DNA of 64,000 nt from Escherichia coli. Its GTDB lineage: Bacteria > Pseudomonadota > Gammaproteobacteria > Enterobacterales > Enterobacteriaceae. This document shows positions 19,216 through 20,756 of the stretch, piece after piece. The notes under the pieces were generated by a model. The model was not told the DNA's origin. It ran no database searches and worked only from the letters and a program-made list of their open reading frames with translations. Position 1 is the first letter of the stretch. Every line of letters begins with the position of its first letter. The position numbers and the translations under genes are program-made. The stretch lies in assembly GCF_050920415.1 (NCBI RefSeq), contig NZ_CP169309.1. One strand, given 5' to 3'.

Positions 19216-20756
<1,541 letters not shown>

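What the first reader, a model, noticed from the sequence alone, without database searches (positions are those of the whole stretch)
20044..20058. rrsE lacks the G of a conserved GATC that is intact in rrsB
rrsE reads cctccaatctctacg where rrsB (61487-61502) and the canonical E. coli 16S read cctccaGatctctacg. The missing base is the G of a Dam GATC site in a universally conserved helix, making rrsE 1541 nt against 1542. A second rrsE-only difference (ggaattGtacc at 20088-20097 versus ggaattCtacc) lies 5 nt from a CCTGG Dcm site. A real 1-nt deletion here seems unlikely to be tolerated, so the likelier explanation is consensus error at methylated motifs that was not polished out in a multi-copy repeat.
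Basis: partly seen in the sequence, partly recalled or inferred. Interest (0 to 1): 0.4.

Follow-up and report, generated by a model that had tools for sequence, protein, structure and literature searches.

The report
Assembly error in one 16S copy
One of the two E. coli 16S rRNA genes in this window really does lack a base in the deposited sequence, but the evidence says this is an uncorrected sequencing/assembly error in a repeated rRNA operon, not a biological mutation.

Summary
Window rrsE (19216-20756, minus strand) is 1541 nt.

It is almost certainly an artefact.
- The window matches RefSeq NZ_CP169399.1 (strain MFDS1022581) with 2 substitutions in about 53.5 kb of unique DNA, against 31 differences (11 indels) in about 10.5 kb of rRNA operon.
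- In that sister assembly rrsE is canonical, and the identical C708 deletion sits in rrsA instead.
- Other single-base deletions also change operon between the two assemblies, without carrying neighbouring natural markers.
- Neither 16S change occurs in any 16S copy of the other complete E. coli genomes searched (5,425 with a match).
- The deletion 27-mer has no match in 100,044 species-representative genomes. The intact 28-mer is exactly conserved even in endosymbionts.
- The deletion breaks the G682-C708 pair (about 5.4 kcal/mol), and G674C does not compensate.
- All 11 distinct indel sites are deletions in homopolymers, in Dam/Dcm motifs or beside them, the known long-read error profile that short-read polishing cannot fix in repeats.

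A role for methylation specifically is plausible but unproven. Interest is low.

The parts
19216..20756 (-). rrsE 16S rRNA gene, 1541 nt as deposited (one base short)
   Evidence: Rfam RF00177, 1562.2 bits, full model; two differences from rrsB
20049..20050 (-). Junction of the 1-nt deletion: RNA C708 is missing, which is the plus-strand G of GATC. It is the partner of G682 in helix 23.
   Evidence: gap in a paired column of the Rfam model; K-12 numbering
20083..20083 (-). Substitution G674->C in RNA sense (plus-strand g where all other copies have c); private to this copy
   Evidence: absent from all other E. coli records
20074..20078 (.). CCTGG/CCAGG Dcm motif, 5 nt from the G674C change. 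The sister assembly's rrsB has a 1-nt deletion (A675) on the same flank.
60659..62200 (-). rrsB 16S rRNA gene, 1542 nt, with GATC intact at 61493-61496. Identical to the sister assembly's rrsE and to N96 rrsE at every variable column.
15872..18774 (-). rrlE 23S gene, 2903 nt against 2905 in N96 and the sister rrlE. It lacks G35 inside CCTGG (junction 18739/18740) and one A of AAA at 1142 (about 17633-17635). It also carries C1547T (17231) and A1596G (17182).
   Evidence: the G35 deletion is found only in the sister record, in other operons
57317..60218 (-). rrlB 23S gene, 2902 nt. It lacks a base at 687 (about 59532-59534), U1602 (58619/58620) and G2775 (about 57446), and carries C1595T (58626).
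60618..60619 (-). 1-nt deletion (T) in the rrnB 16S-tRNA spacer relative to all other Glu-type spacers examined

Best explanation
The missing base is an error in the deposited consensus, not a mutation in the bacterium. The genome was evidently built from long reads, with or without short-read polishing. The roughly 5-kb rRNA operon is present about seven times. Short reads cannot be placed uniquely inside it, so residual long-read consensus errors survive there while unique DNA is cleaned up. At certain error-prone contexts (homopolymers, Dam GATC, Dcm CCWGG and their flanks) the long-read pileup is close to a tie, so each operon copy flips to 'deleted' or 'intact' more or less independently. 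That explains why the same deletions appear in different operons in two assemblies of the same clone. Shown here: the errors are confined to repeats, their operon location is not reproducible, they are absent from the species and from other taxa, and they damage the RNA structure. Inferred: the platform, the pipeline, and a role for Dam/Dcm methylation at this site. My confidence that methylation is the proximate cause is about 0.5.
For: (1) Window against RefSeq NZ_CP169399.1: 33 differences. Only 2, both substitutions, fall in about 53.5 kb of unique DNA. The other 31, including 11 indels, fall in about 10.5 kb of rRNA operon (Fisher p = 1.7e-22 for all differences and 2.3e-9 for indels). 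None of the annotated CDS in the region is flagged as a pseudogene. (2) The sister assembly's rrsE is canonical at 1542 nt. Its rrsA carries the identical C708 deletion, and its rrsB has an A675 deletion next to the window's G674C. (3) Other deletions change operon in the same way: 23S G35 in CCTGG (winE, recB, recA) and A1142 (winE, recA). 16S A1150 is deleted in recB and recA but not in the window's rrsB. (4) winE shares three deletions with recA but not recA's natural markers: 16S 79/90, 23S 1171-1178 (only 29 nt from the A1142 deletion), and 1211/1220/1229. (5) Real lineage alleles are shared by all copies and by N96. (6) No other record among about 37,900 16S copies from 5,425 genomes has either 16S change. 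The 23S G35 deletion occurs only in the sister record. (7) The deletion 27-mer has 0 hits in 100,044 species representatives. The wild-type 28-mer has at least 120 loci across Enterobacterales, Aeromonas, Shewanella and Catenovulum, plus Blochmannia, Regiella and Sodalis. (8) The deletion falls in a paired Rfam column and the gene scores 15.4 bits lower than rrsB. The h22-h23 domain folds at -31.7 kcal/mol for wild type, -26.3 with the C708 deletion and -25.3 with both changes. (9) All 11 distinct indel sites are deletions: 4-5 in homopolymers, 2-3 in Dam/Dcm motifs, and one beside a Dcm site. (10) Literature: ONT consensus errors concentrate in Dcm motifs and then homopolymers (PMC6591954). 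Long-read-first hybrid assemblies keep errors mainly in repeats, often with none in non-repeat DNA, and indels outnumber substitutions (PMC8442456). The rRNA operon is a repeat for short-read polishers (PMC9980784). DNA modification causes strand-specific ONT errors with GATC a dominant motif (PMC11610603). Published MFDS-series E. coli genomes used MiSeq plus PacBio Sequel or MinION with Unicycler (PMC11133561).
Against: No reads or assembly metadata were available, so the error is inferred and not observed. The window's source assembly is not the RefSeq record: it differs at rpoC codon 553 and at a synonymous aceK site. The comparison is therefore between two isolates or assemblies of one clone, not two assemblies of known identical DNA. 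If Dam sites were generally error-prone, the C708 deletion should recur in other long-read E. coli assemblies, yet it is seen only in this strain pair. That points to a pipeline-specific or strain-specific cause I could not identify. One deletion, 23S G2775, sits in rrlB in both assemblies, so not every anomaly moves between operons.
Confidence: 0.93

Rival explanations
1. It is still an artefact, but unrelated to methylation. It would be generic deletion-biased long-read noise, or a confused consensus where reads or graph paths from seven slightly different operons are mixed (for example Unicycler long-read bridges). The GATC and CCWGG contexts would then be coincidental.
For: Four to five of the 11 distinct indel sites are plain homopolymer deletions: 16S A1150 and 23S A477, A501, A1142, and possibly 687. 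Three more (23S U1602, 23S G2775 and the rrnB spacer T) touch no Dam/Dcm motif. Natural alleles are also assigned to different operons in the two assemblies: the rrsB V1/V6 allele, and 23S 1547T/1596G. The MFDS series may use PacBio Sequel rather than ONT. Only 2-3 of about 26 Dam/Dcm sites per operon are affected. Other E. coli assemblies do not show the C708 deletion.
Against: Two or three of the 7 window indels fall in motifs covering 2.4% of the operon (p about 0.011 to 0.0004). The 674/675 site beside CCAGG is hit independently in both assemblies. The G35 deletion inside CCTGG is present in 3 of 6 copies. Deletion of a non-homopolymer base is not typical of random noise.
Confidence: 0.4
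2. It is a real private mutation: this isolate truly carries a 16S allele in rrnE lacking C708 and with G674C. It would be tolerated because six other operons supply normal ribosomes.
For: The sequence as deposited says so. Seven operons buffer a recessive defect. The window's isolate or assembly is distinct from the RefSeq record, so private changes are possible.
Against: The sister assembly has wild-type rrsE and the same deletion in rrsA. The same operon carries two more 1-nt deletions in 23S, and the neighbouring operon carries four more deletions, three in 23S and one in the spacer. There is no compensation, and about 6.4 kcal/mol is lost with both changes. The changes are absent from about 37,900 E. 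coli 16S copies and from 100,044 species representatives. The site is not a slippage-prone repeat.
Confidence: 0.04
3. It is a real defective rRNA allele that exists in the clone and has been moved between operons (rrnA to rrnE) by gene conversion.
For: winE and recA share three deletions: 16S C708 and 23S G35 and A1142. Gene conversion among rrn operons is well known (general knowledge).
Against: winE lacks recA's flanking natural markers: 16S 79T/90A, the 16S A1150 deletion, 23S T687, the 23S 1171-1178 allele 29 nt from the A1142 deletion, and 1211/1220/1229. At least three separate very short conversion tracts would be needed in a clone that differs by 2 substitutions per 53 kb. A copy with several deletions in conserved rRNA would be selected against.
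Confidence: 0.02

Closest known systems
Residual errors in repeats of long-read-first or hybrid bacterial assemblies (Wick et al. 2021 Trycycler, PMC8442456; Wick et al. 2023, PMC9980784)
   Same: Errors are confined to the multi-copy rRNA operon while unique DNA is essentially clean. They are indel-dominated and differ between independent assemblies.
   Different: The pipeline and platform of this assembly are unknown to me. The same sites recur in different copies, which points to systematic context-specific errors rather than purely random ones.
Methylation-motif basecalling errors in Oxford Nanopore consensus: Dcm CCWGG and Dam GATC (Wick et al. 2019, PMC6591954; PMC11610603; PMC11610573)
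   Same: The deleted base lies inside a GATC. The substitution is 5 nt from a CCWGG. Another deletion lies inside a CCTGG. Homopolymer deletions accompany them.
   Different: Only a few of the operon's 9 GATC and 17 CCWGG sites are affected. The specific deletion is not seen in other E. coli assemblies. The platform, the strand bias and the strain's dam/dcm status could not be checked.
Genuine intragenomic 16S rRNA heterogeneity in E. coli (for example the V1/V6 alternative allele seen in the sister assembly's rrsB)
   Same: It is a difference between rRNA operon copies within one genome.
   Different: Natural alleles are substitutions in variable regions, they recur across strains, and the ones here sit in the variable V1 and V6 regions. 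This change is a 1-nt deletion in an exactly conserved stem, it is uncompensated, and it is unique to one strain's assemblies.

Membership tests
Unpolished long-read consensus error in a multi-copy repeat | Anomalies are concentrated in repeats while unique DNA is clean | tested here: met
   31 differences (11 indels) in about 10.5 kb of rrn against 2 substitutions and 0 indels in about 53.5 kb of unique DNA (Fisher p = 1.7e-22 and 2.3e-9). No pseudogene flags in the region.
Unpolished long-read consensus error in a multi-copy repeat | Not reproducible between assemblies of the same clone | tested here: met
   The C708 deletion is in rrsE in the window but in rrsA in NZ_CP169399.1, whose rrsE is canonical. 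The 23S G35 and A1142 deletions change operon likewise.
Unpolished long-read consensus error in a multi-copy repeat | Indel-dominated and deletion-biased, in homopolymer or modified-motif contexts | tested here: met
   All 11 distinct indel sites are deletions: 4-5 homopolymer, 2-3 Dam/Dcm, 1 beside a Dcm site.
Unpolished long-read consensus error in a multi-copy repeat | Reads, or an operon-specific amplicon, show the base is present | not testable with these tools
   No read data or wet-lab access.
ONT methylation-motif (Dam/Dcm) systematic error | The error lies within or next to GATC or CCWGG | tested here: met
   C708 is the C of GATC 705-708. G674 is 5 nt from CCAGG 679-683.
ONT methylation-motif (Dam/Dcm) systematic error | Errors are enriched in the motifs beyond chance | tested here: inconclusive
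   Two or three of 7 window indels fall in motifs covering 2.4% of the operon (p about 0.011 to 0.0004). The numbers are small, 23S 687 is ambiguous because a T allele is present in 3 of 4 sister copies, and most motif sites are unaffected.
ONT methylation-motif (Dam/Dcm) systematic error | Native DNA sequenced on nanopore, with a strand-specific miscall in the reads | not testable with these tools
   No metadata or reads. Published MFDS-series genomes used either PacBio Sequel or MinION.
ONT methylation-motif (Dam/Dcm) systematic error | The strain encodes active Dam and Dcm | not tested
   dam and dcm lie outside the window. Their presence is assumed from general E. coli biology.
Genuine functional 16S allele (intragenomic heterogeneity) | The secondary structure is preserved or compensated | tested here: not met
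   There is a gap in a paired model column. Predicted energies are -31.7 (wild type), -26.3 (C708 deletion alone) and -25.3 kcal/mol (with G674C added).
Genuine functional 16S allele (intragenomic heterogeneity) | Found at the same operon in close relatives, or recurring in the species or other taxa | tested here: not met
   The sister assembly's rrsE and N96 rrsE are canonical. No other E. coli record carries it. There are 0 hits in 100,044 species representatives.
Genuine functional 16S allele (intragenomic heterogeneity) | Linked to neighbouring natural markers as a haplotype | tested here: not met
   winE shares deletions with recA but none of recA's natural markers.

The most novel reading that the evidence does not exclude
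The deletion is real. This food isolate would carry, in one of its seven operons, a 16S rRNA with a one-base shorter helix 23 (bulged G682/G683) plus G674C. That would be a naturally occurring, tolerated lesion in a stem that is otherwise exactly conserved from E. coli to Shewanella and to insect endosymbionts.
Probability: 0.03. Interest if true: 0.4.

Novelty: not a real feature. Interest (0 to 1): 0.05.

Why it matters
There is no biological significance. The practical value is as a data-quality flag. The rRNA operons of this assembly, and of RefSeq NZ_CP169399.1, carry multiple single-base deletions and inconsistent allele-to-operon assignments. Their 16S and 23S sequences should not be used for rRNA heterogeneity studies, reference databases or fine-scale typing without re-polishing. 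The case also shows a simple test: compare sister assemblies and check whether a variant stays in the same operon.

Tried and rejected
(1) Compensatory-pair idea, that G674C offsets the C708 deletion within helix 23. Rejected: G674C makes the predicted fold about 1 kcal/mol worse both alone and combined with the deletion.

(2) 'GATCT-specific' error motif. Only 2 of the 9 GATC sites in the operon are GATCT, and both looked hit. This weakened when six copies showed T at 23S 687 in 3 of 4 sister copies and in 10 scattered records. The window's 23S 'deletion' there may be a TTT->TT homopolymer error on a T allele.

(3) Strain-specific restriction-modification motifs overlapping the sites: GAATTC at 674-679 and AGATCT at 704-709. 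This is an idea from memory only. It could not be tested without the whole genome or methylome, and the 23S site is TGATCTA, not AGATCT.

(4) Gene conversion of a real defective allele. Rejected as unparsimonious.

(5) Looking for the strain in the literature gave nothing.

(6) The other rrn operons of the sister record (rrnD, rrnG, rrnH) were not located, because one-row-per-record BLAST output made that costly.

(7) Technical hiccups: loci fetched by accession were stored inside another FASTA file; one alignment script had an anchor bug and flooded its output (redone); one collection scan was queue-blocked; one literature query was malformed.

Full report
OBSERVATION. The window holds two complete E. 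coli rRNA operons on the minus strand. rrnE comprises 5S 15661-15776, 23S 15872-18774, tRNA-Glu 18972-19044 and 16S 19216-20756. rrnB comprises 5S 57106-57221, 23S 57317-60218, tRNA-Glu 60416-60488 and 16S 60659-62200. A full alignment of the two 16S genes (1541 and 1542 nt) shows exactly two differences. In RNA sense and K-12 numbering these are deletion of C708 (the plus-strand G of GATC, missing between 20049 and 20050) and G674->C (plus-strand g at 20083). The stated distance of 5 nt from the CCTGG site (20074-20078) is correct. K-12 rrsB and rrsE and the closest relative N96 rrsE are canonical at both positions.

STRUCTURE. Both changes lie in helix 23 (673-717). The Rfam alignment puts the gap in a paired column, opposite G682, and rrsE scores 15.4 bits below rrsB. 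The h22-h23 domain folds at -31.7 kcal/mol (wild type), -26.3 (C708 deletion), -30.7 (G674C) and -25.3 (both). The deletion is destabilising and the substitution does not compensate. The deleted base is not in a homopolymer or repeat, so replication slippage is not an obvious source (inference).

PROVENANCE AND THE KEY COMPARISON. The unique purH-zraR flank is 100% identical to RefSeq NZ_CP169399.1, E. coli MFDS1022581, from animal-source food in Gwangju, Korea. Over the whole window the two sequences differ at 33 positions.
- Only two differences, both substitutions, lie in about 53.5 kb of unique DNA. These are aceK Leu80 (synonymous) and rpoC codon 553, which is Thr in the window and in K-12 and Ala in the record.
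- The other 31 differences, including 11 single-base indels, lie in about 10.5 kb of rRNA operon. Fisher p is 1.7e-22 for all differences and 2.3e-9 for indels.
- None of the annotated CDS in the region is flagged as a pseudogene.
So the window comes from a sister isolate or assembly of the same clone. Unique DNA agrees almost perfectly, and the rRNA operons do not.

THE SAME ODDITIES SIT IN DIFFERENT OPERONS. I compared six operon copies: window rrnE and rrnB, and record rrnE, rrnB, rrnA and rrnC. K-12 and N96 served as references.
- Record rrnE has no anomalies (16S 1542 nt, 23S 2905 nt, as in N96).
- The identical C708 deletion is in record rrsA.
- Record rrsB has an A675 deletion, adjacent to the window's G674C.
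- 16S A1150 is deleted in record rrsB and rrsA.
- 23S G35, inside CCTGG, is deleted in window rrlE and in record rrlB and rrlA.
- 23S A1142 is deleted in window rrlE and record rrlA.
- Record rrlC lacks A477 and A501, both in A-runs.
- Window rrlB lacks a base at 687, U1602 and G2775.
- Natural alleles are also placed differently. The V1/V6 alternative 16S allele is in record rrsB but not in window rrsB. The 23S 1547T/1596G pair is in window rrlE and record rrlC.
- By contrast, genuine lineage-specific substitutions (23S 137, 142, 264, 541-552, 1723-1735, 1869-1872, 2203-2215) are identical in all strain copies compared and in N96.
Window rrnE shares three deletions with record rrnA but none of rrnA's natural markers. 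These markers include the 23S 1171-1178 allele, only 29 nt from the A1142 deletion. The deletions therefore do not behave as a transferable haplotype. Independent recurrence at error-prone sites is far more parsimonious than gene conversion.

POPULATION AND PHYLOGENETIC CHECKS.
- A 131-nt query spanning both 16S changes hit about 37,900 16S copies in 5,425 complete E. coli genomes. No record has a copy with both changes. Only the sister record has a copy with one of them.
- The 23S G35 deletion is likewise found only in the sister record.
- The 23S 687 deletion occurs in one unrelated assembly, CUVET16-819.
- The 23S G2775 deletion occurs only in the sister record, in the same operon.
- The 27-mer carrying the C708 deletion has no exact match in 100,044 species-representative genomes.
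These span Enterobacterales, Aeromonas, Shewanella and Catenovulum, and include reduced-genome endosymbionts such as Blochmannia, Regiella and Sodalis.
This stretch is under very strong purifying selection.

ERROR PROFILE. All 11 distinct indel sites across the two assemblies are deletions.
- Homopolymers of three or more bases: 16S A1150 and 23S A477, A501 and A1142. 23S 687 joins this group if the true allele there is T.
- Inside Dam/Dcm motifs: 16S C708 (GATC) and 23S G35 (CCTGG). 23S 687 joins this group if the true allele there is C.
- Beside a Dcm site: 16S A675.
- No obvious context: 23S U1602, 23S G2775 and the rrnB spacer T.
Dam/Dcm motifs cover 2.4% of the operon. With 3 of the window's 7 indels inside them, p = 0.0004. 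Excluding the ambiguous 687 site leaves 2 of 7, p about 0.011 (my binomial calculation from the fraction).

An apparent GATCT-specific pattern (2 of 2 GATCT sites against 0 of 7 other GATC sites) must be discounted. T at 23S 687 is present in 3 of 4 sister copies and in 10 scattered, recently deposited records.

MECHANISM. The pattern matches published descriptions.
- Nanopore consensus errors concentrate in Dcm motifs and then in homopolymers (PMC6591954).
- DNA modification causes strand-specific nanopore errors, with GATC a dominant motif (PMC11610603).
- The roughly 5-kb rRNA operon is a repeat for short reads, which impairs polishers (PMC9980784).
- Published MFDS-series E. coli genomes were assembled with Unicycler from MiSeq plus PacBio Sequel or MinION reads (PMC11133561).
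No paper mentions this strain, so the platform for this genome is inferred. My best reading is that near-tied long-read pileups at error-prone contexts flip independently in each operon copy, and short reads cannot correct them because they map to several operon copies. I rate the artefact at 0.93. I rate methylation as the proximate cause at this site at about 0.5.

WHAT REMAINS OPEN. No reads were available, so the artefact is inferred from comparative evidence. It is unexplained why these particular sites fail only in this strain's assemblies among thousands of E. coli genomes. A pipeline-specific setting, low spanning-read coverage or a strain-specific modification are all possible. 23S G2775 in rrlB is consistent between both assemblies and could be a genuine private change.

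VERDICT. This is not a real biological feature. Interest is low (0.05), apart from a quality warning about the rRNA operons of these assemblies.

Noticed in passing
window 42019 (rpoC codon 553): The window has Thr553, as in K-12. The near-identical RefSeq record NZ_CP169399.1 has Ala553, a non-synonymous A/G difference. It is one of only two differences in about 53.5 kb of unique DNA. The other is a synonymous change in aceK Leu80 at window 9943.
   Followed up: partly
window 57446 (23S G2775 of rrlB): This 1-nt deletion (CCCC[G]AGATG) is present in rrlB of both the window and the sister record, and in no other E. coli record. It is the only rRNA deletion that stays in the same operon, so it may be a genuine strain-private change or a reproducible error.
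   Followed up: partly
window 60659-62200 against NZ_CP169399.1 rrsB (L003 27949-29488): The sister assembly's rrsB carries the alternative V1/V6 16S allele (79T, 90A, 93C, 1002-1038 block), but the window's rrsB does not. Natural alleles are thus assigned to different operons in the two assemblies, so at least one has mis-resolved operons.
   Followed up: partly
window about 59532-59534 (23S position 687): GATC->GATT at this site occurs in 10 of 5,433 E. coli records. These are unrelated strains that cluster by submitting lab, all with recent accession numbers. One of them, CUVET16-819, has both the T form and the deletion form in different operons. This may be a recurrent technical hot spot or a rare homoplastic allele.
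   Followed up: partly
L027 (Blastococcus litoris, 465 nt), L053 (Companilactobacillus huachuanensis, 494 nt), L073 (Olsenella profusa, 483 nt): These tiny contigs sit in species-representative assemblies of unrelated phyla. They are 99.6-99.8% identical to E. coli 16S over about 341-805, the V3-V4 amplicon region. They are most likely amplicon or E. coli contamination.
   Followed up: partly
window 10300-10377, 38538-38698, 48034-48095, 18782-18890 and 60226-60334: Ordinary Rfam hits expected for this E. coli region: naRNA4, sroH, P26, and StyR-44 next to each 23S gene. There is also a TPP riboswitch at 32745-32845 upstream of thiC.
   Followed up: no
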